Source: Malacoraja senta (lineage: Eukaryota). From it: 64,000 nucleotides of DNA. The stretch is from contig CM075995.1 in the NCBI GenBank assembly GCA_038087875.1, positions 9,922,001 through 9,986,000 of the forward strand, read 5' to 3'. The position numbers and the translations under genes are program-made. The notes under the pieces were generated by a model. The model ran no database searches. It was not told the DNA's origin and saw nothing but the letters and a program-made list of their open reading frames with translations. Below, in pieces: positions 7,600 to 64,000 of this stretch (its first letter is position 1; every line of letters begins with the position of its first letter).

Positions 7600-8900
7600 G
7601 ACCGACTGCATGAAGGAACAGGAGCTGGGTGTATGAAGGATCATGTGAGGTGTTGGGGGCTTGAGAGTTAAGAGTTTTAGTGAGGTGGTCACACTTATGG
7701 TGCAGGTAGAATGTAGATGTGGGACCACCAGGAAAGGGAAAATGAGCAAGCAGAGAGTGCAGGGTTCCCTTGTGGCCATTTTGCTTAAACAGGTGTGCTC
7801 TTTGGATATTATTAGGAGGAATGATCGTTCAGGAGAAAGCAGCAGCCAGGTCTGTGGCACCGTAGGTACACAAAAATGCTGGAGAAACTCAGCGGGTGCA
7901 GCAGCATCTATGGAGCGAAGGAAACAGGCAACGTTTCGGGCCGAAACCCTCGAAACGTTGCGTGTTTCCTTCGCTCCATAGATGCTGCTGCACCCACTGA
8001 GTTTCTCCAGCATTTTTGTGTACCTTGGATTTTCCAGCATCTGCAGTTCCTTCTTTAACACTCTGTGGCACGGTGTCTGGCTCCGAGGCAGAGCGGGAAA
8101 AGGTGAAGTCCGACAGAGCAACTGAGAGAAGACTCGTTAGTTAGGGGAAAAGAGAGATTGTGTGACAGCATTCAGGAGTGGCTGCAGAACATTCCCAATG
8201 TGTTTCGTGCACATGGGACAAATTACATGGGTAGGAAAAGGGATGAGGTCCTGCAAAGTGAATATGGGGAGCAAGACAAAAGGTCCCAAAAGCAGAACCA
8301 CAATAGTAGTAATCTCTGGATTATTCCGCATTGCTGTGTATTAGTGTGGGTAGGGATAGGATGACAGGATAGATGAATGCTTGGCTGGGGATTTTTGGAC
8401 CATTGGGATCTTTTCTGGGCAGAGATAACCTGCACAAGAGAGACTGGTGGCATCCAAACTGGCTGGGTCCAATATTCTGTCTACTCGGGAAGGTTAAACT
8501 AAACTGGCAGAGGGCAGGATTCAAAGCAGTAGTGAGGTAGTTATGAGGCTGGAGGTGGATACACAGAAGTCAATGGCAGCAGGTTCAGTGCAGCCAAGAC
8601 AAGTAGAGCACCAGAGGAAATACGGTTGGATTATTTCAATGCAAGAGGTCTGACAGGTAAGCATATGAACTCGGGGCGCGGATAGGTACATGGGACTGGT
8701 AAATGTTGACAGAACTCTGGTATAGGGAGGGACAGGATTGGGTGTTTAATGTTCCAGAGTATATGCTAAAGGTGGGGACAAGAGAGGAGGCCGAGCTGCT
8801 TTATTGTTTATGGAGAACTTTATGGCGGTAGTCCGAGATGACATTACTGAAGGATTGTTCAGTGAGGCTAAAGGGGTGGAGTTGAGAAAGCAAAAGAGTT
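7600..8900 (+). mobile_element. Degenerate CR1 5' region (ORF1 esterase-like remnant and start of the endonuclease)
   Basis: Similar to the minus-strand ORF1 region at 30291-30536 (gtagtaatctctggatt, cattgggatcttttctgggc) and to the EN start (tttcaatgcaagagg). Confidence 0.6.
7861..8061. mobile_element. Fold-back (palindromic) short element built from two Penelope 3' ends
   Basis: About 75-bp inverted arms at 7864-7938 and 7951-8025; 10-bp TSD tctgtggcac (7851-7860, 8062-8071); arm matches 54006-54070. Confidence 0.85.
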
Positions 8901-28134: not shown

Positions 28135-30555
28135 ACCAAAGTGGATAACCTCACATTTATCCACATTAAACTGCATCTGCTATGCAGCTGCCCACACACC
28201 CAACCTGTCCAGGTCACCCTGCATCCTCATAGCATCCTCACATTCTGAAAGGGTCCCGTAAATCCCTACTCTTTGTTTCCTGTCTGTCAACCAATTTAAA
28301 TATCATGTCGGTACCGTACATGTGCTCTAATTTGCCCACTAATCTGCTATGTGGGACCTTATCAAAGGCTTCTGAAGGTCCAGGGTACATTAAATCCACC
28401 GGCTCTCCCTTGTCCATTTCCTAGTTATATCCTCAAAAAATTCAGAAGATTAGTCAAGCGTGATTTCCCCATCATAAATCCATGCTGACTCGGACCGATC
28501 CTGTTACTGCTATCCAAATGTGCCGCTATTTCATCTTTTATAATTGACTCCAGCATCTTCCCCACCACCGATGTCAGGCTAACTAGCTTATAATTCCCTG
28601 TTTTCCTCTCTCCATCCTTTCTTTAAAAAGTGGGATATTAGCTACCCTCCAATCCACAGGAACTGATCCTGAATCTATAGAACATTGGAAAATGATCACC
28701 AATGCGTCCACGATTTCTAGAGCCACTTCCTATAAGTATCCTGGGATGCAGACCAACAGGCCTTGGGGATTTATCAGCCTTCAGTCCCATTGTCTACCCC
28801 AACACCATTTCCTGCCTAGTGTGAATTACCTTCAGTTCCTCTGTCACCCTAGGTCCTTTGGCCACTAGTACATCTGGGAGATTGTTTGTGTCTTCCTGAG
28901 TGAAGACAGATCCAAAGTATCTTGGTTCTTGGTTTCTTGGTCCTCAAATATTCCAATGAATTTAAACTGGAGGTGGACTCAACTCTGTTCAACTCGTCTG
29001 CCATTTTCTTGTTCCCCATAATAAATTCACCTGTTTCTGTCTTCAAGGAACCCACATTTACTATTTAGCTTTTCCTATCCTCCTTTATGTTCTTGGCTAG
29101 CTTACCAACGTACCTCATCTTTTCTCCCAGTATTGCCTTTTTAGTTATCTTCAGTTGCTCTTTGAAAGTTTCCCAATCCTCTGGCTTCCTGCTTATCTTT
29201 GCTATGTTATACTTCTCTTTTATTTTTATACTGTCCTTGACTTCCCTTGTCAGCCACGGTCGCCTCTTACTCCCCTTAGAATCTTTCTTCCTCTTTGGAA
29301 TGAACTGATCCTGCACCTTCTGTATTATTCCCAGAAATACCTGTCATTGTTGTTCCACTGTCATCCCTGCTAGGGTCCCTTTCCAGTCAACTTTGGCCAG
29401 CTCCTCCTCATGCCTCCATAGTCCCCTTTGCTCAACTGTAATACTGACACTTCTGATTTTCCCTTCTCCCTCTCAAATTGTGGATTAAAATTTATCATAA
29501 TATGGTCACTACCTCCTAATGGCTCCTTTACCTTGTTCCCTTTATCAAATCCGGTTCATTGCACAACACTGAATGCAGAATTGCCTTCTCCCTGTTAGGC
29601 TCCAGTACAAGCTACTCTAAGAATCCACCTCGGAGGCACTCCACAAACTCCCTTTCTTGGGGTCCAGTACCAACCTGATTTTCCCAATCTACCTGCATGT
29701 TGAAATCTCCCATAACCACCATAGCATTACCTTTGTGACATGCCAATTTTAACTCTTGATTCAACTTCCACCCTATATCCAGGCTACTGTTCGGGGGCTT
29801 GTAGATGTCCCATTAAGCTTTTTTTACCCGTACAATTCCTCAGTTCGATCATTACTGACTCTACATCTCCTGATTCTATGTCACCTCTTGCAAGGGACTT
29901 AATTTCACTCCTTAGCAACAGCTACCCCACCCCCTCAGCCCACCTGCCTGTCTTTTCGATAGGATGTATACCCCTGAATATTCAGTTCCTAGCCCTGGTC
30001 CTCTTTCAGCCATGACTGTAATTCCCACAACATCATATTTGCCAATTTCTAACTGAGCCTCAAGCTCATCCATTTTATTTCTTATACTTCGCGCATTCAT
30101 ATACAACACTTTAACTTCGGTATTCACCTTCCCTCACACACTGGTCACTATTGGCCCTGACCTTACTCTCTTATCCCTTCTCGAACTTGCCTTCTCATTA
30201 ATTCAGTGGTCTTTTATAACTTTTCCTAAAGTCACTTCCCCTTTAACTCCATCTTTATACACCCAATTTGTCAACCCCTCCCCCGGCTGTTTAGTTTAAA
30301 CCCACACGTGTAGTACTGGCAAACCTGCCTGCCAGAACGTTGGTCCCACTCCAGTTAAGATATGACCCGTCCGTTTTGTATAGGTCACCCATACCCCAGA
30401 AGAGATCCCAGTGGTCTATAAATCTAAATCCTTGCTCTCTGCACCAGCCCCCCAGCCACACATTCAGATCCCCTATCTCCTTGTTCCTGCCCTTGCCAGC
30501 ATGAGGTACAAGAAGCAATCCAGAGATAACCACCATAGAAGTCCTGCTTTTCAGT
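28135..30555 (-). mobile_element. CR1 5' half: ORF1 SGNH-esterase C-terminus, endonuclease and RT start, degenerate
   Basis: VVISGLL...WCREQGFRFIDHWDLFWG..DLYKTDG (30536-30291); VLYMNARSIRNKMDEL (30127-29912). Confidence 0.88.
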
Positions 30556-31437
30556 CTTGTTCCTAACTCTCTTAACGCTGCAGAACCTCCTTCCTCTTCT
30601 TACCGACGTCGTTTGTGCCTACGTACACAACTACTTCCAGCTTCCCTCTCGAGGATTTCATTTGTTTCTATCGGGTTACCCCTCAGCCTCTGACACTCCA
30701 GCGAAAAGTATTTACACTTCTTATAGCAAATACTCTCTAATCCAGGCAACATACATGTCAACATCTTATGTGTAATTTGGCGTAACTACGGGTTCACAAA
30801 CCCACAGCCCGATTTCCCAGTTTTTTATATTTAACATCCCCCAATGAAGAAAGCATACAATATGCCGCCCATGCCACTGTATCTACTTGTGTTACCACTT
30901 TGGGGGGGACGATGGACTTGCACCCCAAGATATCTCTGTACATCAGTGCCCTGAAGATCTTGCCATTTTCCAGATATTTGTTAATTGATGTATAAGCCTC
31001 CTATGTTCCACCTTTTCAAAAACAAACTGCTGGAATAACTCTGCTGATCAGGCAGTAACTGTAAGGAAAATAGATAATATTTTTGGTCGGGATACTTCGG
31101 ATTGAACAAACGTCCCAGCCTGAAATGTCACCTGTCCATTCCCCTCACGGATGCTGTCTGACCGGTGTGAGTTTCTCTAATGGTTTGTTTATTTTTTACT
31201 CTAGATTCCAGCCTCTGCAGTCTCTTGTCAAATTATTTTTGGAAATCTAAATACACCACATCTGTAGGTTGCCTTGTATAATTTCTTCCTGTTACATCTT
31301 GAAACTATTTGAGCAAATTTGTCAATCATTAATTACTGTTTGTAAAATCATGTTGACTGGATTTAATGATTTTAATTGATTAGCTGTTTCCTCTGATTAT
31401 GGACGTATTTTACTAATAGCTATTTAACTTGGTTTTA

Positions 31438-33033
31438 CAGTTCCCTCCATAATGTTTGGGACAAATACCCATCATTTATTTATCTGCCTCTGCACTCAAC
31501 AATTTGAGATTTGTAATAAAAAAAAATCACATGTGGTTAAAGTGCACATTGTCAGATTTTAATAAAGGCCATTTTTATACATTTTGGTTTCACCATGTAG
31601 AAATTACAGCAGTGTTTATACATAATCCCCCATTTCAGGGCACCATAATGTTTGGGACACAGCAGTGTCATGGAAATGAAAGTAGTCATGTTTAGTATTT
31701 TGTTGCATTTCCTTTGCATGCAATGACTGCTTGAACTCTGCAATTCATGGACATCACCAGTTGCTGGATGTCTTCTCTGATGATGCTCTGCCAGGCCTGC
31801 ATTACAGCCATATTTAGCTTATACTTGTTTTGGGGGATAGTCCCCTTCAGTTTTCTCTTCAGCATATAAAAGGCATGCTCAATTGGGTTCAGATCAGGTG
31901 ATTTACTTGGCCACTAAAGAATTGACCATTTTTTAGCTTTGAAAAACTCCTTCGTTGCTTTAGCAGTATGTTTGGGATCATTGTCTTGCTGTAGAATGAA
32001 CCGCAGACAATGAGTTTAGAGGCATTTGTTTGAACTTAATAGAAATTAAGTTAATAGCATGTGTCTATACACTTCAGAATTAATTACCACCATCAGTTGC
32101 ATCATCAATGAAGATAAGTGAGCCAGTACCTTCAGCAGCCATACATGCCCAGGCCATAACACCCTCACCACCGTGTTTCACAGATGAGGAGGTATGCTTT
32201 GGATCTTGGGCAGTACCTTCTCTCCTCCATACTTTGCTCTTGCCATCACTTGATATAAGTTAATCTTCGTCTCATCTGTCAACAAGACCCTTTTCCAGAA
32301 CTGTAGTTGCCCTTTTAAGTACTTCTTGGCAAACTGTAACCTGACCATCCTATCTTTGCGGCTAACCAGTGGTTTGCATCTTGCAGTGTAGCCTCTGTAT
32401 TTCTGTTCATGAAGCCTTCTGCGGACAGTGGTCATTGACAAATCCACACCTGACTCCTGAAGAGTGTTTCTGATCTGTCGGATAGGTGATGGGGATTTTA
32501 CTTTATTATAGAGAGAATTCTTCTGTCATCAGCTGTGGAGGTCTTCCTTGGCCTGCCAGTCCCTTTGCGATTAGTAAGCTTACCAGTGCTCTCTTTGTTC
32601 TTAATAATATTTCAAACAGTTTTATTCTTGTTTCTCAGTCTCAAAGTGGTTTCTTTGACTTTCATTGGCAAAACTTTGGTCCTCATGTTGATGGACAGCA
32701 ATAAAAGTTTCCTATGGTGATGGAAAGACTGGGTGCTGAGAACTCTCTTATATCTGCATTAAGGAGGCAATTAAACACACCTAAGCAATTACAAATACCT
32801 GCGAAACCATGTGTCCCAAATATTATGGTGCCCTGAAATGGGGGGGGACGATGTATAAACACTGCTGTAATTTCTACATGGTGAAACCAAAATGTATAAA
32901 AATACCCTTTAATAAAATACAATGTGCACTTCAACCATATGTGATTTATTTCTATTACAAATCTCAAATTGTGGAGTACAGAGGCAAATAAATAAATGAT
33001 GGGTCTTTGTCCCAAACATTATGGTGGGCACTG
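31438..33033 (-). mobile_element. Tc1/mariner DNA transposon of IR/DR type, defective transposase
   Basis: TA target duplication; about 224-bp terminal inverted repeats (31438-31661, 32810-33033), each with two direct repeats resembling ccataatgtttgggaca; transposase remnant TVRRRLHE...RLQFAKKY...WKRVLLTDETK. Confidence 0.93.
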
Positions 33034-33478
33034 TAGTTCCCTGCCTTTGTCCTTTTGGGGTGATCTGAATGAGGTGTTTAAAGTGACTTGGTGAGGCAAG
33101 ATCAGGCTGGCTGACCTCCCTCTGATTGTTGAAGTAGAGGTGGGTGACAAATTATCTTGAAATTCTTCAAGAAATAGAGGATGTGGGAACTGTGGTGTTA
33201 CTGTGGCAGAGCTGCAGTAGACCCAGGTCCTTTCTGATTCTTCGATAGGTATGTATGTTCTGGTGTGATGGCAGCTCTCTGAATGTCAGTTACCTTAGAA
33301 ACAAACTTGGAAGAGAAATGCCGAATGAGATTATTAGGCTGTACAGGTTAATTAGATGGTGGTTGTGAAGTTGTTTCTGTCTGTGCACGATAACTGGGGA
33401 TAGTGATGGTCAACTAGCACCAGAGCTTGCACTCTGCTGTTGCAGAATAGAAAGTGAGGCCCTTCCTTTTGCTTGTAG

Positions 33479-33646
<168 letters not shown>

Positions 33647-41160: not shown

Positions 41161-41790
41161 GGCTCTGCAGGGGTGGGTGTGGCTAAATGTTGCTGAAATG
41201 AATGCAAAGCCTGCTTCACAAAGTGTCTGAGAGAGTATGGGATGCATAGGAACCTCTTGGAGTAAGGAGGAACTTCGGATGGGGATTCAAGGAAACAACA
41301 AATCTGTGCAAAGGAGTGAGCAAGGTACAGAAGGTTGAAGAAAGGTGAGAAAGTGGGGCAAGACCTGCTATGGTGATCTCTGTTTTACACACACTATCCT
41401 CACAATCTGACCCCTGGAAGTATTGGGCTTGGAGGATCACCAGCTCCTCCTTCTTTCCACTAAATTGGAAATCAGTACAAATTTGCTTGCCGGTTCCAAG
41501 CTTTGCTGTGATGAGCACAGACTGATGGGTGAAGAGAACCAGAGTTTTGGATGAGCTACAGTTGAGAGCTCGGCAAAAGTGTCCAGGAAGGCGTTAGCTG
41601 TTGGTGGTAGTGGACAATCCTGAGGGTGTGGAATCCCTTCTTAGAACACAGGACAGTTGCAAACATTGTAGGAAGGAACTACAGATGCTGGTTTAAACCG
41701 AAGATAGATGGAAAATGCCAGAGTAACTCAGCGGGACATGCAGCATCTCTGGAGAGAAGGAATGGATGACGTTTTGGGTCGAAACCTGAA

Positions 41791-41824
41791 GTCTGATGAT
41801 GGGTCTCGATCCGAAACGTCACCC
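41791..41824 (+). ncRNA. Minimal hammerhead-ribozyme-like motif in a short Penelope-derived element
   Basis: gt CTGATGA t GGGT ctcg ATCC GAAAC GTC accc; consensus CUGAUGA core and GUC cleavage triplet; helix I only about 2 bp. Confidence 0.55.
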
Positions 41825-42412
41825 ATTCCTTCTCTCCAGAGTTGTCAAGCATTTTAAGTCTATCTACAGTTGTGAACTATGGTTTAACCATAGCCAAGAG
41901 CCTGGGAATGTGGTATGTTGATGATCTGTGATCGTCTCTGAAGTTAATCTTCTCTTTGGAAGTCCTTCCTGCTCAAAACCTTGCTTTTGCTTGAGCATCA
42001 TTTTAGTTGTATGTTTTATTTGGAGTTTTGTATTATTATAGATAAGAGAGTGGACATTTGGCCCATCAGGTAATGCCAGGCATCTGCCAGTTTAGTGTGA
42101 CTATATTGAAAAGCAAACAATTGGGTTGGTTTATCATTCGCGTCATGGTGATACAGCGTGGAAACAGGCCCTTTGGCCCAACTTGCCCGGGTTTTGTCCA
42201 TTTCCCTCCAAACCTGTCCTATCCATGTAGTCACTCGTGCTAAACAGGAAAATTGCGTTGGAATATAGTGTTACAGTTACAGAGAAAATGTATATACCAA
42301 TACCAAGTGCAGATTTTAAAATGCAACAGCTGCCATGAGGTAGATGGCAAATTGGAAATTCGTCCACAGTATATGTGAAGTCCATTCAATAGCCTGATAA
42401 CAGCGGGAAAGA

Positions 42413-42612
42413 NNNNNNNNNNNNNNNNNNNNNNNNNNNNNNNNNNNNNNNNNNNNNNNNNNNNNNNNNNNNNNNNNNNNNNNNNNNNNNNNNNNNNNNN
42501 NNNNNNNNNNNNNNNNNNNNNNNNNNNNNNNNNNNNNNNNNNNNNNNNNNNNNNNNNNNNNNNNNNNNNNNNNNNNNNNNNNNNNNNNNNNNNNNNNNNN
42601 NNNNNNNNNNNN
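42413..42612. other. Assembly gap (200 N)
   Basis: Run of N of round length, likely a placeholder. Confidence 0.98.
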
Positions 42613-43258: not shown

Positions 43259-44680
43259 ACCATATAACCATAACAGGCCATCTCGGCCCTTTATTCTTTA
43301 ATTAAAAATAAATACTTCCGCCTAGTCCCATCTACCTGCACTCAGACCATAACTCTCCATTCCTTTCCCGTCCATATACATATCCAATCTATTTTTAAAG
43401 GATAACATCGAACCTGCCTCCACCAATTCCACTGGAAGCTCATTCCACACAGCTACCACTCTCTGAGTAAAGAAGTTCCCCCTAAACTTCTGTCCCTTAA
43501 TTCTCAAGTCATGTCCCCTTGTTTGAATCTTCCCTACTCTCAATGGGAAAAGCTTATCCACGTCCACTCTGTCTAACCCGCTCATAATTTTAAAGACCTC
43601 TATCAAGTCCCCTCTTAACCTTCTGCGCTCCAAAGAATAAAGACCTAACTTGTTCAACCTTTCTCTGTAACTTAGTTGCTGAAACCCAGGCAACATTCTA
43701 GTAAATCTCCTCTGTACTCTCTCTATTTTGTTGACATCCTTCCTATAATTAGGCGACCAAAATTGTACTCCATACTCCAGAATTGGCCTCACCAATGCCT
43801 TGTACAATTTTAACATTACATCCCAACTTCTATATTCAATGCTCTGATTTATAAAGGCCAGCACACCAAAAGCTTTCTTTACCACCCTATCTACATGAGA
43901 TTTCACCTTCAGGGAACTATGCACAGTTATTCCTAGATCCCACTGTTCAACTGCATTCCTCAATTCGCTACCATTTACCGTGTACGTCCTATTTTGATTT
44001 GTCCCGCCGAGATGTAGCACCTCACATTTGTCAGCATTAAACTCCATCTGCCATCTTTCAGCCCACTCTTCCAAATGGCCTAAATCTCTCTGTAGACTTT
44101 GAAAATCTACTTCATTATCCACAACACCACCTATTTTAGTATCATCTGCATACTTACTAATCCAATTTTCCACACCATCATCCAGATCATTGATGTACAT
44201 GACAAACAACAGTGGACCCAACATAGACCCCTGAGGCACCCCACTAGTCACCGGCCTCCAACCTGACAAACAGCCATCCACCATTACTCTCTGGCATCTC
44301 CCATTCAGCCACTGTCGAATCCATCTTGCTACTCCACCATTAATACCCAACAATTGAATCTTCTTAACCAACCTTCCATGAGGAACCTTGTCAAAGGCCT
44401 TACTGAAGTCCATATAGACAACATCCACTGCTTTACCCTCATCAATTTCCCTAGTAACCTCTTCGAAAAATTCAAGAAGATTAGTCAAGCATGACCTTCC
44501 AGGCACAAATCCATGTTGACTGTTCCTAATCAGACCCTGCTTATCCAGATGCTTATATATATTATCTTTAAGTATCCTTTCCATTAATTTGCCCACCACT
44601 GACGTCAAACTAACAGGTCTATAATTGCTAGATTTACTCTTCGAACCCTTTTTAAACAACGGAACAACATGCGCAGTTAT
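43259..44680 (-). mobile_element. CR1 with an open 445-aa RT/C-terminal ORF
   Basis: ORF 44659-43322 (NYRPVSL, GVPQGSMLGP, KYADD); tail ggttatatggttat on the minus strand. Confidence 0.93.
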
Positions 44681-44869
44681 GCGTACACGGTAAATGGTAG
44701 CGAATTGAGGAATGCAGTTGAACAGAGGGATCTAGGAATAACTGCATAGTTCCCTGAAGGTGGAATCTCATGTAGATAGGGTGGTAAAGAAAGCTTTTGG
44801 TGTGCTGGCCTTTATAAATCAGAGCATTGAATATAGAAGTTGGGATGTAATGTTAAAATTGTACAAGAT

Positions 44870-49672: not shown

Positions 49673-52600
49673 GAATTATTCAACAAAAACTTGCAGTGAT
49701 TGTCTGGTATGGCAGTAGTGTGAATGGGCATCTCAGTTGATCATGGTGTTGTTGAAACATTAACTTCACAGGTGGGATGTGTGTGTGTGAATGTCCAGAA
49801 CAGTGTCCAGCACATTACAGGAAGCTGTCTGCTGCTGATGTTACCGGGGTGGTGGCTTTTCCTGTTACTCATCTGGCTACTTAGGTCACTCTCCTACCCT
49901 GCAGTGAGATGCATAGTGGCGGGCAGTGCCGGCCTGATGCTGGGCTGGATTGGGAAAGGAGTGAGCCCGTGTCTGTGGAGGGAGAGTTTTGTCCTTTAGC
50001 CCAGGGAGATACATATGAGGGGTTTGGACGGAGCATAGCAGAGATGTGTAAAACTAGATGTAGCCTTTGGATGCGAGGCAAGAGGTTTAGGAGGGATATG
50101 ATTGGAATCTGGATGGGGGTGGTGGACCATGATGTGCCAACCATGATGTCAAGACCAACTCTTATCTGTCTGCTCATAGTCCATGTCCATCCATTCCCTG
50201 CATTTCCATGTGCCCACCCAAAAGTCTCTTAAATGCTGCTATCGTATCTGCCTCCACTGCTACCCCTGGCGGAATGTCACTCACCAGCCTGTGATTTAAA
50301 AAACACTGGCCCTGCACATCACTGTTAAACTTTGCCCCTCTCACCTTAAAGCTATGGCCTCTAGTATTTAATGCTTCCATCCTGGGGAAAAAGGTTCTGA
50401 CTGTCTACCCTATCTATGCCTCTCATAATTCTATATACTTCTATCATGTCATCCTGCAACCTCTGGCATTCCAGAGAAAACTGCAAGTCTTTCCAACCTC
50501 TCCCTATAGCTAATACCCACTAATCCAGGCATCATTCTGGTGAACCTCTGCAACATATCTAAAGCAGCCATGTCCTTCCTGTAATGCGGTGATCAGAACT
50601 GTACACAATATTCCGATATTCAGTCTGAAGAAGGCTCGACCCGAAAAGTCACCCATTCCTTCTCTCCAGAGATGCTGCCTGACCCGCTGAGTTACTCCAG
50701 CATTTTGTGTCTACCTTCGATTTAAACCAGTATCTGCAGTTCTTTCCTACACATTATTCCAAATGCGGCTTAACCAAAGTACTATAAACCTGCATCATGA
50801 CTTCACACCCATGTGCAGGAGGTTATAGACAGAGTGTTGGTATTGAAATGAATATAGATGGGCACTTGCAGAAACTAGAGTGCAGATACTGGAATCTGAA
50901 ACAAAAAACAAACTGCTGGGGAATGCAGCAAGTCGAGCAGCATACGTGGAGGCAGAGGGGAGTTTACGTTTTGGGTCAAGACTACATGAGGATTTGGTGA
51001 CCTGGACCGAAGAACATTTCTGTGCTTTGACTCCAGGTGAGCATCACCTTTAGAACAGGAGCCTGAGCAATGGAGGTAAGGAAATGTCCTCTTCCCACCT
51101 GTGGTTCAAAACGTCTGGCTGTGAGGTAAATCTCAGCACATCCGCTCTGCCATCAGCAAAACCACCTTGCATGTTGAACAAAGATTTGGAGCCCAAACAC
51201 GTGGCACTACCAGACAAAATGTCAAAGAATACCTTGTTTTTTTTAATATACTGGTAGGAATATCAACAGTTTGATTCTAAAATTCTCATCTGTTTCCAAA
51301 TCTATCAATATTTTTAATGCTTCTTCCAATCTCTCATCTCTTGCAACATTGCAAGAACTCTGTATGCCTCAGTTCTTTAATGTCTACTGTCATATTGTAG
51401 GAATACATTTCTACGCTCCCATTACCAATTCAGACCACTGTCAGAATAAGATGCAGTGCTTGAATAACTCAGTGGGTCTGGCAGCATCTATAGAAAATGA
51501 AACAGTCACCATTCCAGGTTGAAAATCCTCAGCAGATTAATCTGACAAAGTAAACACAAGGAACCGTAGATGCTAGTTTACAAAATAAGACAAAGTGCAG
51601 GAGTAGGGTCAGAGAATAAGAGGTGGTGGGGTTCTTAAATGGGTGAGCAGAGAAACGGGTGTAAAATGCGGGCGGAAGCAATAGGTAGCAAGGTGAAAAG
51701 TAAAAGTGGCAGGCAGACAAATCCAGGGCAAAAATCAAAAAGGGCCACTTTTCAACATAATTGTATAAGGGGTAAGAGCATTGTAAAAACAAGCCTGAAG
51801 ACTGTCTCAATGCAAGGAGCATTCGTAATAAGGTGGATGAGTTGAACGTGCAGATAGCAATTAATGATTATGATATAGTTGGGATCACGGAGACATGGCT
51901 CCAGGGTGACCAATGCTGGGAGCTGAACATCCAGGGATATTCAATATTCAGGAGCGATAGAGAGAAAGGAAAAGGAGGTGGGGTAGCGTTGCTGGTTAGA
52001 GAGGAGATTAACGCAGTGGAAACGAAGGACATTAGCTTGGAGGATGTGGAATCGGTATGGGTAGAGCTGCGAAACACTAAGGGGCAGAAAACGCTGGTGG
52101 GTGTTGTGTACAGGCCACCTAGCAGTAGTAGTGAAGTTGGGGATGGCATCAAACAGGAAATTAGAAATGTGTGCAACAAAGGCAAAACAGTTATAATGGG
52201 AGACTTCAATCTACATATAGATTGGGTGAATCAAATTGGCAGGAGTGCTGAGGAAGAGGATTTCTTGGAATGTATGCGGGATAGTTATCTAAACCAACAT
52301 GTAGAGGAACCAACGAGAGAGCAGGCTATTCTAGACTGGGTATTGAGTAATGAGGAAGGGTTAGTTAGTAGTCTTGTGCGTGCCCCCTTGGGCAAGAGTG
52401 ACCATAATATGGTTGAGTTCTTCATTAGGATGGAGAGTGACATTATTAATTCAGAAACAACGGTTCTGAACTTAAAGAAAGGTAACTTGGAGGGTATGAG
52501 ACGTGAATTGGCCAAGATTGACTGGCAATTAGTTCTAAAAGGGTTGACGGTGGATATGCAATGGAAGGCATTTAAAGACTGCATGGATGAACTACAAAAA

Positions 52601-54005
52601 TTGTTCATCCCAGTTTGGCAAAAGAATAAATCAGGGAAGGTAGTGCATCCGTGGATAACAAGGGAAATCAGGGATAGTATCAAAGCAAAAGATGATGCGT
52701 ACAAATTAGCCAGAAAAAGCAGCATACCAGAGGACTGGGAGAAATTCAGACACCAGCAGAGGACAAAGGGCTTAATTAGGAAAGGGAAAATAGATTATGA
52801 AAGAAAACTGGCAGGGAACATAAAAACTGACTGCAAAAGTTTTTATAGATATGTGAAGAGAAAGAGATTAGTTAAAACAAATGTAGGTCCCTTGCAGTCA
52901 GAAACAGGTGAATTGATCATGGGGCACAAGGATATAGCGGACCAATTGAATAACTACTTTGGTTCCGTCTTCACTAAGGAAGACATAAATAATCTGCCGG
53001 AAATAGCAGGGGGCCGCGGGTCAAAGGAGATGGAGGAACTGAGTGAAATCCAGGTTAGTAGGGAAGTGGTGTTGGGTAAATTGAATGGATTAAAGGCCGA
53101 TAAATCACCAGGGCCAGATAGGCTGCATCCCAGAGTACTTAAGGAAGTAGCTCCAGAAATAGTGGAAGCATTAGTGATAATTTTTCAAAACTCTTTAGAT
53201 TCTGGAGTAGTTCCTGAGGATTGGAGGGTAGCAAACGTAACCCCACTTTTTAAGAAGGGAGGGAGAGAGAAAACGGGGAATTACAGACCAGTTAGTCTAA
53301 CATCGGTAGTGGGGAAACTGCTAGAGTCAGTTATTAAAGATGGGTTAGCAGCACATTTGGAAAGTGGTGAAATCATTGGACAAAGTCAGCATGGATTTAC
53401 GAAAGGTAAATCGTGTCTGATGAATCTTATAGAATTTTTCGAGGATGTAACTAGTAGAGTGGATAGGGGAGAACCAGTGGATGTGTTGTATCTGGACTTT
53501 CAGAAGGCTTTCGACAAGGTACCACATAAGAGATTAGTATACAAACTTAAAGCACACGGTATTGGGGGTTCAGTATTGATGTGGATAGAGAACTGGCTGG
53601 CAAATAGGAAGCAAAGAGTAGGAGTAAATGGGTCCTTTTCACAATGGCAGGCAGTGACTAGTGGGGTACCGCAAGGCTCAGTGCTGGGACCCCAGTTATT
53701 TACAATTTATATTAATGAACTGGATGAGGGAATTGAAGGCAACATCTCCAAGTTTGCGGATGACACTAAGCTGGGGGGCAGTGTTAGCTGTGAGGAGGAT
53801 GCTAGGAGACTGCAAGGTGACTTGGATAGGCTGGGTGAGTGGGCAAATGTTTGGCAGATGCAGTATAATGTGGATAAATGTGAGGTTATCCACTTTGGTG
53901 GCAAAAACAGGAAAGCAGACTATTATCTAAATGGTGGCCGATTAGGAAATGGGGAGATGCAGCGAGACCTGGGTGTCATGGTACACCAGTCATTGAAAGT
54001 AGGCA

Positions 54006-55483
54006 CACAAAAATGCTGGAGAAACTCAGCGTCTATGGAGCGAAGGAAATAGGTAACGTTTCGGGCCGAAACCCTTCTTCAGACTGATAGGGGGTGGGGA
54101 GAAGAAAGGAAAAAAGGAAAAAGGCGGAGGAGGAGCCCGAGGGCTGGGGGAGGGGAGGAGACAACCAGATGGCTGATGAAGGGGAGGGGACAGCAAGGGC
54201 TAGCAGAATTGGGAGAATTCAATGTTCAGGCCACCAGGATGTAGACTGCCCAAGCGGAATATGAGGTGCATTTCCTCCAATTTACGGTGTTGCTCGCTGT
54301 GGCCATGGAGGAGACCCAGGACAGAGAGGTCAGATACGGAATGGGGGGGGGGGGGGAGTTGAAGTGCTGAGCCACCGGGAGTTCAGGTTGGTTATTGCGG
54401 ACCGACCGGAGGTGTTCGGCGAAACGATCGCCAAGCCTCCGCTTGGTCTCACCGATGTAGATCAGCTGGCATCTAGAGCAGCGAATGCAATAGATGAGGT
54501 TGGAGGAGATGCAGGTGAACCTCTGTCGCACCTGGAACGACTGCTTGGGTCCTTGAATGGAGTGGATGGGGGAGGTGAAGGGACAAGTGTTGCATCTCTT
54601 GCGGTTGCAAGGGAAAGTACCAGGGGAGGGGGTGGTATGGGAGGGAAGGGAAGAATTGACAAGGGAGTTACGGAGGGAGCGGTCTTTGCGGAAGGCAGAC
54701 ATGGGGGGAGATGGGAAGATGTGGCGAGTGGTGGGGTCACGTTGGAGGTGGCGAAACTGACGGAGGATCACTTGTTGTATGTGACGGCTGGTGGGGTGAA
54801 AGGTGAGGAGTAGGGGGACTCTGCCTTTGTTGTGAGTGGGGGGATGGGGAGAGAGAGCAATGTTGCAGGGTATGGCAGAGACCCTGGTGCGAGCCTCATC
54901 TATGGTGGAGGAGGGGAACCCCCGTTCCCTGAAGAATGAGGACATTTCAGATGCCCTGGTGTGGAACGCCTCATCCTGGGAGCAGATGCGGCGTAGACGG
55001 AGGAATTGGGAGTGGGGGAAGGAGTCCTTACAGGAAGCAGGGTGGGAAGAAGTGTAGTCCAGATAGCCATGGGAGTCGGTAGGTTTGTAGTGGATGTCGG
55101 TAAGGAGTCTATCACCTGCGATGGAGATAGTGAGGTCAAGGAATGGTAGAGAAGTGTCGGAAATGGTCCAGGTGTATTTGAGTGCCGGATGGAAGTTGGT
55201 GGTGAAGCGGATGAAGTCAGTCAGTTGTGTGTGGGTGCAGGATGTGGCACCAAAACAATCATCGATGTAGCGGAGGTAGAGGTCGGGGATGGGGCCCTGG
55301 TACGCATTGAACAAGGATTGTTCTACGTACCCGACAAAGAGGCAGGCGTAGCTGGGGCCCATGCGTGTGCCCATAGCTACGCCTTGTATTTGGAGGAAAT
55401 GGGAGGAGTCAAATGAAAAGTTATTAAGTGTAAGTACCAGCTCCGCTAGGCGGAGGAGGGTGTCAGTGGCCGGGTATAGATTG
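54006..55483 (-). mobile_element. Penelope-like retroelement, 5'-truncated, RT plus GIY-YIG endonuclease
   Basis: ORF 55374-54226 has the RT motifs MGTRMGPSYA and YLRYIDD and GIY-YIG-type NLIYCIRC..IYIGETKRRL..RFAEH; flanked by a 15-bp TSD cattgaaagtaggca (53991-54005, 55484-55498); apparent frameshift at the G run near 54350. Confidence 0.92.
54051..54086 (-). ncRNA. Minimal hammerhead-ribozyme-like motif at the Penelope 3' end
   Basis: Minus strand reads cagt CTGAAGA a GGG tttcgg CCC GAAAC GTT acct: CUGANGA core, helix II, GAAA, palindromic ACGU helix III, NUH site. Confidence 0.6.
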
Positions 55484-57859
55484 CATTGAAAGTAGGCATG
55501 CAGGTGCAGCAGACAGTGAAGAAAGCGAATGGTATGTTAGCTTTCATAGCAAAAGGATTTGAGTATAGGAGCAGGGAGGTTCTACTGCAGTTGTACAGGG
55601 TCTTGGTAAGACCACACCTGGAGTATTGCGTACAGTTTTGGTCTCCAAATCTGAGGAAGGACATTATAGCCATAGAGGGAGTGCAGAGAAGGTTCACCAG
55701 ACTGATTCCTGGGATGTCAGGACTTTCATATGAAGAAAGACTGGATAGACTTGGCTTATACTCGCTAGAATTTAGGAGATTGAGAGGGGATCTTATAGAA
55801 ACGTACAAAATTCTTATGGGGTTGGACAGGCTAGATGCAGGAAGATTGTTCCCGATGTTGGGGAAGTCCAGGACAAGGGGTCGCAGCTTAAGGATAAGGG
55901 GGAAATCGTTTAAGACCGAGATGAGGATAAACTTTTTCACACGGAGAGTGGTGAATCTCTGGAACTCTCTGCCACAGAGGGTAGTTGAGGCTAGTTCATT
56001 GGCTATATTTAAGAGGGAGTTAGATGTGGCCCTTGTGGCTAAAGGGATCAGGGGGTATGGAAAGGCAGGTACGGGATACTGAGTTGGATGATCAGCCATG
56101 ATCATATTGAATGGCGGTGCAGGCTCGAAGGGCCGAATGGCCTACTCCTGCACCTATTTTCTATGTATCTATGTATCTATGACCAAAAATTTTGCCTGTT
56201 CATGCTCTCCAGAGATGCTGCCAGACCCGCTGAGTTGGTATCTGCCAGCTTTTGACCACTGAATTAATCCATTCTCATCCAAATGAAAAAAAATCCTATC
56301 CCAAAGATTTCTCACCAGTAGCTTCCCTACCACTCGCATGAAGTCCACAGGCCTATACTTTCTTGGATTCTCCCTACTTCCCTTGTTAAATAAATGAACA
56401 ACAGTAACTTTTGTCCAGTCCTCTGGGATCTTGCCTGTGGCTAGAGAAATGTAAAGATCCTCGTCGAGGCTCCTACCATCTCTTAAAGAGAAGGTTACAG
56501 AGGAAAAAGTGCAAGGTTGCAGGTAGGTTTGAAGATCCAGGCTACACCCTCGCTTATGGGAGGATCGTTTGGTAGTTGTTAAATCATATTAAATAACAGT
56601 AGGGAGGAAACTTCCTGAATCTGGTCTTACGTGCTTTCCAGCTTTTCTATCTTCTGTTGGGAGAGGAGGGAAGAGCGAGTGGTTCTTGAACATGTTGCCC
56701 GCTTTTCCGAGGCAACGTGAGGGAGGCGGAATTGATTGAGGGGAGGCTGGTCTGTAATGCACTGGGCTCCATCCACAACTCTCTGAAATTTCTTGTGGAC
56801 TTGGCCAGAGCTGTGCCCAAGATGGGAAGTGCCCATTGTAACCAGAGAGCCCTGGATTGAGCAGTTTGGATTGAGGAGGGGAGGGGGAACAACAGGAAAA
56901 TGTCTGGAGGAGGGGTCCAGGGAGAAGGTGTGGCCAAGTTGGTGGTTCTGAGGGGGGGTCAAGGAAATTTGTAGGTAGCTTCCTGAAGAATGCACGGTCT
57001 GAGGACAGGGAGAGCGAGGAGGTTTGAATTGCCAGCAGCAATGGAGTTGCAGCAAATTGGTCTTCCTACTCTTTCCTAGAAAAGTGTAGAGCATAGAATT
57101 AACAAACTTTTTTCGAACAAAAAGTGGGAGGTTTTAGGGAATGAGGCTGTGTGGCAATGATCAGATTTTATTCCGATTTAGTAATTTCCTTGTATTCAGA
57201 GGTCTACTGTATGCTCTTAGCTGTGTGCTAGCCCTTTGTTCTCAAGTTCAACCTGTATCGATTGTTCTTTTTAACAAATCAATTCTCACATCCTTAACTA
57301 TTTATTAAGGACAAAGGTAAAATCAGAGTAGGAAGACCATTTTTTCTAAACTGGAAACTTGGTAAGTCTGTCAAGAGTTAATATTGTGCAGGAAGGAACT
57401 GCAGATGCTGGTTTAAACCAAAGATAGACAAAAAGCTGGAGTAACTCAGGACAGGCAGCATCTCTAGAGAGAAGGAATGGGTGACGTTTTGGGTTGAGAC
57501 CTTTCAGACTGGTTAGGGATAAGGCAAACTAGAGATGTAGACTATGATGTGGAGAGATAAAGAACAATGAATAAAATATATGCAAAAAAGTAACGATAAT
57601 AAAGGAAACAGACTGTAGGGTGAAAACGAGAAGCTCATGCGACTTGGGTGGGGGAGGAATAGAAAGAGAGGGAATACTGGGACTACCCGTATTAATAATG
57701 TTTATTTGTCATAAGCACCAGAACAGTGAAATTCTTCATTGCTGCAGCTTTGCAAGCACAGTAAATACAACACAACGAATAGTCACTCTAGATAAATTGT
57801 TATTCTAGGTAACCCAGACCATGATAGTGCAAGCCTCTTGACTAATGGGAGACAGAATA

Positions 57860-59380: not shown

Positions 59381-59596
59381 GTGTAGGAAGGACCTGCAGA
59401 TGCTGGTTTACACCGAAGATGGACACAAAAAGCTGGAGTAACTCAGCGGGACCAGGCAGCATCTCTGGAGAGAAGGATGGGTGACGTTTTGGGTCGAGAC
59501 CCTTCTTCAGACTGAAGAATAGTCTTGACCCGAAACGTCGCCCATTCCTTCTCCAGATACGCTGAGTTACTACGGCATTGTGGGTCTGTCTTCACT
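59381..59596. mobile_element. Fold-back short Penelope-derived element
   Basis: Centre ttcttcagactgaagaa with gaaacgtc-type motifs on both strands and inverted arms. Confidence 0.8.
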
Positions 59597-60689: not shown

Positions 60690-60928
60690 CCACTTGCAGC
60701 AGCAAAACAGGCCAGTAAACACAATACTCATAGATAATATACTAAACAAAGAAAATATATATTAAAAAATCCAGTATTATTGCAAAAATCCCAAAGTCCT
60801 TAGTGCAAACAAGGCAGTTTGTAGTTCATAGTTTAGTTAGCATTTGTTGCGTTCAAAAGCCCGATGGTTGTTGGGAAGAAGCTGTTCTTGAACCTGGAGG
60901 TCATGGTTTTCAGATTCTTATACCTTCT
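60690..60928 (-). mobile_element. Non-LTR retrotransposon 3' end (Rex1/Babar-like); related fragments near 3850-4210, 42240-42412 and 56590-56840
   Basis: Minus-strand peptide TSRFKNSFFPTTIGLLN; FPAVIRLLN at about 42400. Confidence 0.55.
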
Positions 60929-61925
60929 GCACCAGCCCCCCAGCCACACATTCAGATCCCCTATCTCCTTGTTCCTGCCCTTGCCAGCATGAGGTACAAG
61001 AAGCAATCCAGAGATAACCACCATAGAAGTCCTGCTTTTCAGTCTTGTTCCTAACTCTCTTAACGCTGCAGAACCTCCTTCCTCTTCTTACCGACGTCGT
61101 TTGTGCCTACGTACACAACTACTTCCAGCTTCCCTCTCGAGGATTTCATTTGTTTCTATCGGGTTACCCCTCAGCCTCTGACACTCCAGCGAAAAGTATT
61201 TACACTTCTTATAGCAAATACTCTCTAATCCAGGCAACATACATGTCAACATCTTATGTGTAATTTGGCGTAACTACGGGTTCACAAACCCACAGCCCGA
61301 TTTCCCAGTTTTTTATATTTAACATCCCCCAATGAAGAAAGCATACAATATGCCGCCCATGCCACTGTATCTACTTGTGTTACCACTTTGGGGGGGACGA
61401 TGGACTTGCACCCCAAGATATCTCTGTACATCAGTGCCCTGAAGATCTTGCCATTTTCCAGATATTTGTTAATTGATGTATAAGCCTCCTATGTTCCACC
61501 TTTTCAAAAACAAACTGCTGGAATAACTCTGCTGATCAGGCAGTAACTGTAAGGAAAATAGATAATATTTTTGGTCGGGATACTTCGGATTGAACAAACG
61601 TCCCAGCCTGAAATGTCACCTGTCCATTCCCCTCACGGATGCTGTCTGACCGGTGTGAGTTTCTCTAATGGTTTGTTTATTTTTTACTCTAGATTCCAGC
61701 CTCTGCAGTCTCTTGTCAAATTATTTTTGGAAATCTAAATACACCACATCTGTAGGTTGCCTTGTATAATTTCTTCCTGTTACATCTTGAAACTATTTGA
61801 GCAAATTTGTCAATCATTAATTACTGTTTGTAAAATCATGTTGACTGGATTTAATGATTTTAATTGATTAGCTGTTTCCTCTGATTATGGACGTATTTTA
61901 CTAATAGCTATTTAACTTGGTTTTA

Positions 61926-63521
61926 CAGTTCCCTCCATAATGTTTGGGACAAATACCCATCATTTATTTATCTGCCTCTGCACTCAACAATTTGAGATTT
62001 GTAATAAAAAAAAATCACATGTGGTTAAAGTGCACATTGTCAGATTTTAATAAAGGCCATTTTTATACATTTTGGTTTCACCATGTAGAAATTACAGCAG
62101 TGTTTATACATAATCCCCCATTTCAGGGCACCATAATGTTTGGGACACAGCAGTGTCATGGAAATGAAAGTAGTCATGTTTAGTATTTTGTTGCATTTCC
62201 TTTGCATGCAATGACTGCTTGAACTCTGCAATTCATGGACATCACCAGTTGCTGGATGTCTTCTCTGATGATGCTCTGCCAGGCCTGCATTACAGCCATA
62301 TTTAGCTTATACTTGTTTTGGGGGATAGTCCCCTTCAGTTTTCTCTTCAGCATATAAAAGGCATGCTCAATTGGGTTCAGATCAGGTGATTTACTTGGCC
62401 ACTAAAGAATTGACCATTTTTTAGCTTTGAAAAACTCCTTCGTTGCTTTAGCAGTATGTTTGGGATCATTGTCTTGCTGTAGAATGAACCGCAGACAATG
62501 AGTTTAGAGGCATTTGTTTGAACTTAATAGAAATTAAGTTAATAGCATGTGTCTATACACTTCAGAATTAATTACCACCATCAGTTGCATCATCAATGAA
62601 GATAAGTGAGCCAGTACCTTCAGCAGCCATACATGCCCAGGCCATAACACCCTCACCACCGTGTTTCACAGATGAGGAGGTATGCTTTGGATCTTGGGCA
62701 GTACCTTCTCTCCTCCATACTTTGCTCTTGCCATCACTTGATATAAGTTAATCTTCGTCTCATCTGTCAACAAGACCCTTTTCCAGAACTGTAGTTGCCC
62801 TTTTAAGTACTTCTTGGCAAACTGTAACCTGACCATCCTATCTTTGCGGCTAACCAGTGGTTTGCATCTTGCAGTGTAGCCTCTGTATTTCTGTTCATGA
62901 AGCCTTCTGCGGACAGTGGTCATTGACAAATCCACACCTGACTCCTGAAGAGTGTTTCTGATCTGTCGGATAGGTGATGGGGATTTTACTTTATTATAGA
63001 GAGAATTCTTCTGTCATCAGCTGTGGAGGTCTTCCTTGGCCTGCCAGTCCCTTTGCGATTAGTAAGCTTACCAGTGCTCTCTTTGTTCTTAATAATATTT
63101 CAAACAGTTTTATTCTTGTTTCTCAGTCTCAAAGTGGTTTCTTTGACTTTCATTGGCAAAACTTTGGTCCTCATGTTGATGGACAGCAATAAAAGTTTCC
63201 TATGGTGATGGAAAGACTGGGTGCTGAGAACTCTCTTATATCTGCATTAAGGAGGCAATTAAACACACCTAAGCAATTACAAATACCTGCGAAACCATGT
63301 GTCCCAAATATTATGGTGCCCTGAAATGGGGGGGGACGATGTATAAACACTGCTGTAATTTCTACATGGTGAAACCAAAATGTATAAAAATACCCTTTAA
63401 TAAAATACAATGTGCACTTCAACCATATGTGATTTATTTCTATTACAAATCTCAAATTGTGGAGTACAGAGGCAAATAAATAAATGATGGGTCTTTGTCC
63501 CAAACATTATGGTGGGCACTG
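61926..63521 (-). mobile_element. Second copy of the Tc1 element, carried inside the segmental duplication
   Basis: Same sequence and same flanks as 31438-33033. Confidence 0.92.
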
Positions 63522-63966
63522 TAGTTCCCTGCCTTTGTCCTTTTGGGGTGATCTGAATGAGGTGTTTAAAGTGACTTGGTGAGGCAAGATCAGGCTGGCT
63601 GACCTCCCTCTGATTGTTGAAGTAGAGGTGGGTGACAAATTATCTTGAAATTCTTCAAGAAATAGAGGATGTGGGAACTGTGGTGTTACTGTGGCAGAGC
63701 TGCAGTAGACCCAGGTCCTTTCTGATTCTTCGATAGGTATGTATGTTCTGGTGTGATGGCAGCTCTCTGAATGTCAGTTACCTTAGAAACAAACTTGGAA
63801 GAGAAATGCCGAATGAGATTATTAGGCTGTACAGGTTAATTAGATGGTGGTTGTGAAGTTGTTTCTGTCTGTGCACGATAACTGGGGATAGTGATGGTCA
63901 ACTAGCACCAGAGCTTGCACTCTGCTGTTGCAGAATAGAAAGTGAGGCCCTTCCTTTTGCTTGTAG

Positions 63967-64000
63967 GGGTTTGCTTTTGTGGAGTACGAAGTTCCAGAGG
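63967..64000 (+). other. puf60: Second copy of the puf60 exon-7 acceptor and exon start ([11 protein letters not shown]), running off the window
   Basis: Identical to 33479-33512 with the same upstream intron. Confidence 0.9.

What the first reader, a model, noticed from the sequence alone, without database searches (positions are those of the whole stretch)
54006..55483. Penelope-like element whose 3' end carries a minimal hammerhead ribozyme core
Seen: downstream of the RT/GIY-YIG ORF the element strand reads CUGAAGA-a-GGG(uuucgg)CCC-GAAACGUU. Established: Penelope-like elements carry minimal type I hammerheads with a palindromic helix III (ACGU) that can cleave as dimers, and an extra nucleotide between A9 and G10.1 is tolerated in some natural hammerheads. 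Inference: this is the coding partner of a ribozyme-bearing retroelement family in this genome. Weak point: helix I appears to be only about 2 bp.
Basis: partly seen in the sequence, partly recalled or inferred. Interest (0 to 1): 0.75.

Follow-up and report, generated by a model that had tools for sequence, protein, structure and literature searches.

The report
Dead Penelope retroelement with minimal hammerhead
This is a broken copy of a Penelope-like jumping gene in a skate-like fish, and its tail carries the small self-cutting "hammerhead" RNA motif that such elements are already known to carry, so it is real but ordinary.

Summary
Confirmed, and of a known kind. Window 54006-55483 (- strand, 1478 bp) is a 5'-truncated Penelope-like element (RT, linker Zn-finger, GIY-YIG; Neptune-like). 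It sits between perfect 15-bp target-site duplications inside an otherwise open APE-RT LINE; the closest protein is from a skate (92%). A minimal type I hammerhead lies 117 nt past the stop: all 11 core letters, the extra A, helix II of 4 bp (not 3), palindromic ACGU, helix I of 2 bp. It occurs in 0 of 20000 shuffles. Metagenome relatives carry the motif in sense in 25 of 49 loci, with two compensatory pair changes, and their motif matches the published Acropora Neptune hammerhead (Cervera 2014). Activity is not shown: the RNA is predicted to misfold, no RNA ends pile up at the cut, only 7 of 25 window copies keep the core, and none of the other six is on this strand. This copy cannot be the coding master (RT truncated, nuclease frameshifted). 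The scan reported the same phenomenon in four other shark windows. Two leads: a competing 'off' hairpin, and one contig junction at the predicted cut.

The parts
54006..55483 (-). 5'-truncated Penelope-like element (Neptune-like), 1478 bp, ending at the short (tail-less) 3' end
53991..54005 (.). Target-site duplication, copy at the element's 3' side (15 bp)
55484..55498 (.). Target-site duplication, copy at the element's 5' side (15 bp, identical)
   Evidence: the empty-site join is seen as a loose end in run X1
54352..55482 (-). ORF remnant, 377 aa: RT from just after motif 3(A), with the QxxGVAMG and YIDD motifs; thumb; CX4CxxC linker; first part of the GIY-YIG nuclease with CCHH residues
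54343..54356 (+). Run of 14 G in which the reading frame shifts, inside the nuclease domain (mutation or assembly error in a homopolymer)
54200..54349 (-). C-terminal end of the GIY-YIG domain in the other frame, stop at 54202-54200
   Evidence: tblastn of P0002, P0003, P0004, P0008
54053..54084 (-). Minimal type I hammerhead: helix I 54084-83/54054-53; CUGAAGA 54082-76; extra A 54075; helix II 54074-71/54066-63; GAAA 54062-59; palindromic ACGU 54059-56; U17 54055; predicted cut 54055|54054
54051..54074 (-). Predicted competing hairpin (GGGU at 54074-71 pairs with ACCU just past the cut) that would hold the ribozyme off; inference from folding
54006..54052 (-). Rest of the pseudo-LTR end; lacks a 12-nt stretch that many related RNA reads carry and the 41-nt tail seen in a sister copy (8021-8061)
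   Evidence: table 4
51776..54005 (+). Host APE-RT LINE ORF, 5' part (interrupted by the insertion)
55499..56082 (+). Host LINE ORF, 3' part; the frame is open for 937 codons across the insertion site
7864..8061 (.). Short head-to-head insertion of the same subfamily (one arm with tail, one without), with a 13-bp duplication (one mismatch) at 7851-7863 / 8062-8074

Best explanation
A dead, recently inserted copy of a Neptune-like Penelope element, whose 3' pseudo-LTR carries the family's inherited minimal hammerhead. Shown: the anatomy, the target-site duplication, the damage to the ORF, and the motif's conservation across distant relatives. Inferred from work on other PLEs: an intact master's GIY-YIG nuclease cut the LINE DNA with a stagger of about 15 bp; RT primed on uncut element RNA at the short internal start site downstream of the hammerhead and stopped inside the RT gene. 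In master elements the hammerhead is a weak two-molecule ribozyme: each RNA supplies CUGANGA-helix II-GAAA, two ACGU palindromes form helix III, and each cuts its partner after position 17. It probably needs the element's protein to fold, and trims tandem transcripts. At this locus it is a passenger that is rarely or never cut.
For: Duplication and open LINE frame. RT and GIY-YIG homologues, with C292/C297/C300, Y331, C335/C338, Y342-G-E-T, H357 and H373 invariant in 12 aligned sequences. Descriptor match beyond chance. Same motif in sense in 25 of 49 related loci, 0 antisense, 0 of 980 shuffles; its letters from helix I to helix I match the A. digitifera Neptune row of Cervera 2014. Compensatory changes at 2.2-1.2 and 10.4-11.4 between the two families. 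The four variants listed inside the motif in laid reads all keep the structure. Published behaviour: no monomer cleavage and low dimer cleavage; cleavage only with protein, and not needed for insertion.
Against: No cleavage was tested. The modelled active dimer lies 23 kcal/mol above the best fold, and helix II has probability 0.003 in the monomer against 0.99 in the coral-type relative. The 5' half of the core is no better kept than flanks among window copies (73 of 96 letters against about 78%). The covariation is two changes across one family split, and the coral-type loci come mostly from one metagenome. Neptune placement rests on motifs, not on a tree with reference elements.
Confidence: 0.8

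Rival explanations
1. Vestigial ribozyme: the skate lineage keeps the letters because this stretch is a protein-binding or RT-start signal, but with a 2-bp helix I and a competing hairpin it no longer cuts at all.
For: Helix I is one pair shorter than in the coral-type family. Misfolding is predicted for 3 of 3 skate copies folded at 42 nt. No RNA ends at the cut. None of the 25 aligned window copies and 0 of 69 coral-type hits start at the cut. Hammerhead mutants did not affect insertion in vitro in Anolis.
Against: All catalytic letters, the palindrome and a non-G at 17 persist across subfamilies and distant families, with pairs kept by compensation. The D. virilis motif with a 2-bp helix I gave low cleavage when helix III was extended.
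Confidence: 0.13
2. The motif at this locus is an active ribozyme that cuts a host or LINE-antisense transcript here and matters to the host.
For: This copy is one of only 2 in the window that meet the whole descriptor, and related ends are abundant in polyA RNA of a related species.
Against: The insertion is young (perfect duplication, open LINE frame), so an intact core needs no selection. The six other core-intact copies in the window are all on the opposite strand, so no cis partner able to cut it is in view. No host exon was identified among ORFs of 180 aa or more (not a full gene search).
Confidence: 0.03
3. Chance resemblance to a hammerhead in a repeat end.
For: The bare core pattern is common; Rfam finds no hammerhead; folding z-scores are unremarkable.
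Against: 0 of 20000 shuffles; same place and strand in relatives with 34-67% protein identity; fits the published consensus point by point.
Confidence: 0.02

Closest known systems
Minimal hammerheads (min-HHR) in the pseudo-LTRs of metazoan Penelope-like elements (Cervera and De la Pena 2014, PMC4209133), especially the Acropora digitifera Neptune element
   Same: CUGANGA, extra base before G10.1, G10.1-C11.1, GAAA-CG-U-H with no loop 3, short helix I, position in the 3' pLTR, many solo truncated copies. The window's closest metagenome relatives carry the same motif letters as the Acropora row.
   Different: Helix I is 2 bp (G-C, U-A) rather than 3 bp. No cartilaginous fish is among the species rows of their Table S1 or Fig. 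S3 (supplement file 1 was not searchable). A competing helix II/post-cut hairpin is predicted here.
PAc, Poseidon element of Anolis carolinensis (Frangieh et al. 2024, PMC11167929)
   Same: Hammerhead in the pLTR, two alternative 3' ends (with and without a 30-40 nt tail), no RNA-seq ends at the cut.
   Different: Poseidon clade, which lacks the linker Zn-finger; PAc was purified and assayed, whereas this copy is dead and untested.
Neptune clade of EN+ PLEs (as described in Craig et al. 2021, PMC8557442)
   Same: RT then CX2-5CxxC linker then GIY-YIG with CCHH; long spacer after the linker and C-terminal motif like Neptune1_Nv; inverted 5'-truncated partners and optional tails.
   Different: No tree with reference elements was built; Neptune is paraphyletic in that paper. 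This copy is inserted in a LINE ORF, not in a microsatellite.
Animal non-LTR retrozymes (Li et al. 2026, bioRxiv 10.64898/2026.07.22.740005)
   Same: Non-coding hammerhead repeats derived from PLE pLTRs, reported in vertebrates including one chondrichthyan.
   Different: Those are tandem arrays; this element has an ORF remnant and a single hammerhead, and the window's short copies are solo or head-to-head.

Membership tests
EN+ Penelope-like element | Single ORF with PLE-type RT followed by a C-terminal GIY-YIG nuclease | tested here: met
   GIY-YIG PF01541 E 4e-4, just under the curated cutoff; RT by 45-68% identity to 11 aligned relatives, of which the three scanned hit RVT_1; the remnant itself does not hit RVT_1
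EN+ Penelope-like element | CCHH motif in the nuclease | tested here: met
   C335, C338, H357, H373 invariant in 12 of 12 aligned sequences; motif defined
EN+ Penelope-like element | pLTR structures: 5' truncation, inverted partners, optional tail, target-site duplication | tested here: met
   15-bp duplication; six independent head-to-head pairs in the window, each with a tail on one arm only by eye (a pattern search missed one decayed tail)
EN+ Penelope-like element | Two direct pLTRs around a full-length ORF (active element) | tested here: not met
   Only the 3' pLTR; about 270-300 N-terminal residues missing and a frameshift in the nuclease. This bears on activity, not on descent.
Neptune clade | CX2-5CxxC linker between RT and nuclease (shared with Nematis and Naiad) | tested here: met
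   C292, C297, C300 invariant
Neptune clade | Neptune-type spacing and C-terminus rather than Nematis-type | tested here: met
   By-eye comparison with rows of Craig 2021 Fig. S2: long spacer after the linker as in the two Neptune rows, short in the three Nematis rows
Neptune clade | Placement in an RT phylogeny with reference elements | not testable with these tools
Minimal type I hammerhead (min-HHR) | Core C3-U4-G5-A6-N7-G8-A9, G12-A13-A14-A15.1, U16.1-H17 | tested here: met
Minimal type I hammerhead (min-HHR) | Extra base between A9 and G10.1; G10.1-C11.1; helix II | tested here: met
   A at 54075; 4-bp helix; 92% of helix II cells paired in 16 aligned sequences
Minimal type I hammerhead (min-HHR) | Palindromic 15.2/16.2 with no loop 3 | tested here: met
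   A-C-G-U at 54059-54056
Minimal type I hammerhead (min-HHR) | Helix I closing the motif (2-6 bp in published examples) | tested here: met
   2 bp; G-C to C-G swap against the coral-type family; published 2-bp cases
Minimal type I hammerhead (min-HHR) | Core better conserved than flanks across copies | tested here: inconclusive
   Window: 3' core A/T columns 92 of 96 against 456 of 576 in flanks, but 5' core 73 of 96. Coral-type family: 405 of 418 against 835 of 912, loop 145 of 152. Copies are not independent.
Minimal type I hammerhead (min-HHR) | Self-cleavage as a dimer | not testable with these tools
   Needs a bench assay; indirect signs are negative
Rfam hammerhead families | Score against the curated covariance models | tested here: not met
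   No hammerhead hit at E<=1 in the window
Non-LTR retrozyme | Non-coding tandem units, each with a complete hammerhead | tested here: not met
   Coding remnant and one hammerhead; no direct tandem unit in 53000-56500

The most novel reading that the evidence does not exclude
In the skate family the hammerhead is a switch. It is held off by a built-in hairpin (helix II 5' strand GGGU with ACC[U/C] just past the cut, which would explain why C at 54052 is invariant in 13 of 13 rows without pairing in helix I) and is opened by the element's protein. It does cut in vivo, and cut RNA is sometimes copied into DNA: the best-supported joint with inserted letters in run X1 links a unit that starts at the predicted cut (position 1.1) to a tail-less 3' end. 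That would be genomic evidence of in vivo cleavage by a PLE minimal hammerhead, which Cervera 2014 lacked and Frangieh 2024 looked for in RNA-seq and did not find.
Probability: 0.15. Interest if true: 0.5.

Novelty: new member of a known kind. Interest (0 to 1): 0.16.

Why it matters
As it stands it adds a skate example to a pattern described in 2014 and already met by this scan in shark windows. It does supply a very abundant natural series of 2-bp-helix-I hammerheads. What PLE hammerheads do in vivo is still open, so the family would matter if the off-switch hairpin or the cut-site junctions hold up on a whole skate genome.

Tried and rejected
Rfam search of the window: no hammerhead family; 3 weak miRNA-model hits fall on head-to-head repeat pairs and are artefacts of the inverted structure. 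Whole-genome copy analysis: no genome is held for this window. Exact skate-type motif in viral and prokaryote genome collections: 0 and 0. First core-versus-flank test (134 of 142 against 222 of 274): rejected as circular because rows were chosen on core letters; redone with a mixed result. DNA runs X21 and X22 laid 4 and 0 reads, so they are no test. An extended helix I beyond 2 bp: the third pair is unpaired in all 8 skate rows. Copies starting at the cut site: none in the window or in 69 coral-type hits. Covariance model R1 finds 15 window copies at E<=0.011, 8 of them training rows, so it is no independent test. Lunse et al. (RNA Biol) is not held in the library; I saw only its title and a review's account. 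Literature searches for a chondrichthyan report: 'hammerhead ribozyme, Penelope, shark' gave 1 irrelevant hit; 'hammerhead ribozyme, chondrichthyan' 0; 'Neptune, Penelope, elephant shark' 0; a five-term skate search 1 paper, not read. This covers only the held library.

Full report
1. Observation. The - strand at 54084-54053 reads GU-CUGAAGA-A-GGGU-UUCG-GCCC-GAAA-CGUU-AC. All 11 conserved hammerhead letters are present, with an extra A after A9, G10.1-C11.1, a palindromic ACGU in place of helix III, and U17; the predicted cut is 54055|54054. The bare core pattern is not rarer than chance in 64 kb (10 matches, mean 5.8). The full descriptor is: 0 of 20000 dinucleotide shuffles of the 194-nt 3' region, 0 of 3000 of the element, and 1 hit in 40 window shuffles against 2 real hits. 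Rfam gives no hammerhead hit.

2. The element. 54006-55483 lies between identical 15-bp repeats inside an APE-RT LINE ORF whose frame is open for 937 codons when the insertion is ignored, so the insertion is young. The - strand ORF starts after RT motif 3(A), about 270-300 residues into full-length relatives, keeps YIDD, and runs through a CX4CxxC linker into a GIY-YIG domain with the CCHH residues. The frame shifts in a 14-G run (54343-54356) and the last 49 residues of the nuclease are in another frame; this may be a real mutation or a homopolymer error, but the truncation alone makes the copy dead. Of 1265 homologues, the best named are chondrichthyan (up to 69%) and a little-skate protein is 92% identical over about half the query, so the host is skate-like. 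The linker spacing and C-terminus resemble the Neptune rows, not the Nematis rows, of Craig 2021 Fig. S2 (by eye). The hammerhead starts 117 nt after the stop.

3. Relatives. A metagenome scan kept 80 of 156 loci. Of the 49 with at least 300 nt after the nuclease match, 25 carry a palindromic minimal hammerhead in sense about 200-310 nt downstream, 0 in antisense, and 0 of 980 shuffles do. More have one-letter departures. These are one family, mostly from one metagenome, so they count as one independent observation. Its motif is the one printed for the Acropora digitifera Neptune element in Cervera 2014. A third family (L019) has a different hammerhead downstream of its ORF. In an alignment of 8 window and 8 metagenome motifs that I chose, 86% of cells pair; pairs 2.2-1.2 (G-C to C-G) and 10.4-11.4 (U-A to C-G) change on both sides; slid controls pair 13-41%. 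That is two changes across one split, not many events.

4. Copies in the window. A profile search gave 34 hits; I aligned the 27 with E below 1e-6 and dropped 7 weak or short ones. Two are exact duplicates, leaving 25. Seven of 25 keep all 11 core letters; only 2 meet the whole descriptor. Three arms are 93-96% like this element's end; the rest are 57-88%. Six independent pairs are head-to-head, each with the tail on one arm by eye, and two short insertions have their own 13-bp duplications with one mismatch. These features match published PLE insertions. Core conservation is mixed: the four A/U columns of the 3' core are 92 of 96 against 456 of 576 in flanks, but the 5' core is 73 of 96, because several copies lost one GAA unit. 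In the young coral-type family the core is 96.9%, the loop 95.4% and flanks 91.6% with gaps counted, a small difference. Inserted copies therefore mostly decay; the evidence for selection lies between families.

5. Sequencing runs. Twenty of 24 listed runs hold the element or part of it. I laid four on 53940-54360 at 82% likeness; two DNA runs gave 4 and 0 reads. In a polyA RNA run from a related species, depth over 54045-54089 is 1180-1950 per direction against 21-80 at 54105-54179, so short ends far outnumber long copies. Likeness stops at 54084-54088, the 5' edge of the motif. Of 40 variant rows shown (117 hidden), four fall in the motif: A1.1 to G (U.G), U17 to C, G11.4 to A (U-A) and a loop base. 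None is in the core, but reads are filtered by likeness. No place shows a pile-up of RNA starts or ends, a weak test in a fragmented library. Over the ORF end, reads are about 2.5 to 1 from the antisense strand if the library is of the usual stranded kind, which suggests read-through of many copies. In run X1 contigs, the best-supported joint with inserted letters (depth 381.5; the other 11 shown 40-100; 50 hidden) runs from 54053 to 54006 with one C between. That C is the majority letter at 54054, so the joint would link a unit starting at the cut to a tail-less end. The table does not give the joint's kind, and self-insertion is a rival: this element's own target begins UGCCU, like both the tail start (UACCU) and the sequence across the cut.

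6. Mechanism. Shown: anatomy, damage, conservation. From the literature: metazoan minimal hammerheads do not cut as monomers and cut weakly as dimers; the Anolis one cuts only with the element's protein, is not needed for insertion in vitro, and RT starts at two internal sites that explain the optional tail. Inferred here: a staggered cut, priming on uncut RNA at the short start site, and early termination gave this copy. Folding argues against spontaneous activity: helix II has probability 0.003 in the monomer (0.99 in the coral-type motif), and the active dimer is 23 kcal/mol above the best fold (17.5 for the coral-type control; the model ignores core tertiary contacts). In 3 of 3 skate copies folded, GGGU pairs with the bases just past the cut. 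In a dimer a copy is cut by its partner's core, and the other six core-intact copies in the window are on the opposite strand.

7. Comparison and verdict. It works like, and by every sequence feature tested is, a PLE minimal hammerhead in a Neptune-like element; cleavage and tree placement are untested. Papers seen: PMC4209133, parts 1-2 of 4 of the text and parts 1-2 of 3 of supplement 2 (supplement 1 not searchable); PMC11167929, parts 1-2 of 4, and a supplement search with no hits; PMC8557442, passages and supplement rows; the 2026 preprint, part 1 of 5, section 14 and passages (its supplements are closed and may name the chondrichthyan families); PMC6765202, PMC6155905 and PMC3846280, passages. 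I found no paper on chondrichthyan PLE hammerheads in four searches, but the preprint includes one chondrichthyan, and four earlier notes of this scan describe the same thing in shark windows (unchecked AI notes). Hammerhead numbering and the roles of G5 and G12 as mutant controls are from my own knowledge. New member of a known kind; interest 0.16.

Noticed in passing
window 30438-33512 and 60926-64000: An exact 3075-bp duplication running to the window's end; a very recent segmental duplication or an assembly overlap.
   Followed up: partly
window 51776-56082 (+): The host APE-RT LINE ORF is open for 937 codons apart from the Penelope insertion, so it is a young LINE knocked out by this insertion.
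   Followed up: partly
window 7864-8061, 12293-12404, 14302-14477, 31022-31189, 41712-41844, 59422-59585: Head-to-head pairs of short pLTR ends. Nearly all arms begin inside or just before the hammerhead, and each pair has one tailed arm; two of them score as miRNA precursors in Rfam by artefact.
   Followed up: partly
run X1 contigs laid on window 53940-54360: Joints from 54087/54088 to 54007 may be head-to-tail units of roughly 90-100 nt, each with a hammerhead (retrozyme-like, able to dimerise); the joint kind is not shown.
   Followed up: no
window 53999-54005 and 7864-7868: The target end next to the tail-less terminus resembles the start of the tail (4 of 5 letters here), hinting at short primer-template pairing at the internal start site.
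   Followed up: no
window 7949-8061 and 50615-50747: Both alternative 3' ends follow the same short motif, CAGCAU(U/C)U or a one-letter variant, about 30 nt apart; it may mark the two RT start sites.
   Followed up: no
L019:4790-4850: A third hammerhead type downstream of a related PLE ORF, with a longer palindromic helix III and a 2-bp + mismatch + 4-bp helix I.
   Followed up: no
window 43325-44731 (-) and about 22680-23237: Further LINE RT remnants, judged from their translations; a 200-N gap lies at 42413-42612.
   Followed up: no
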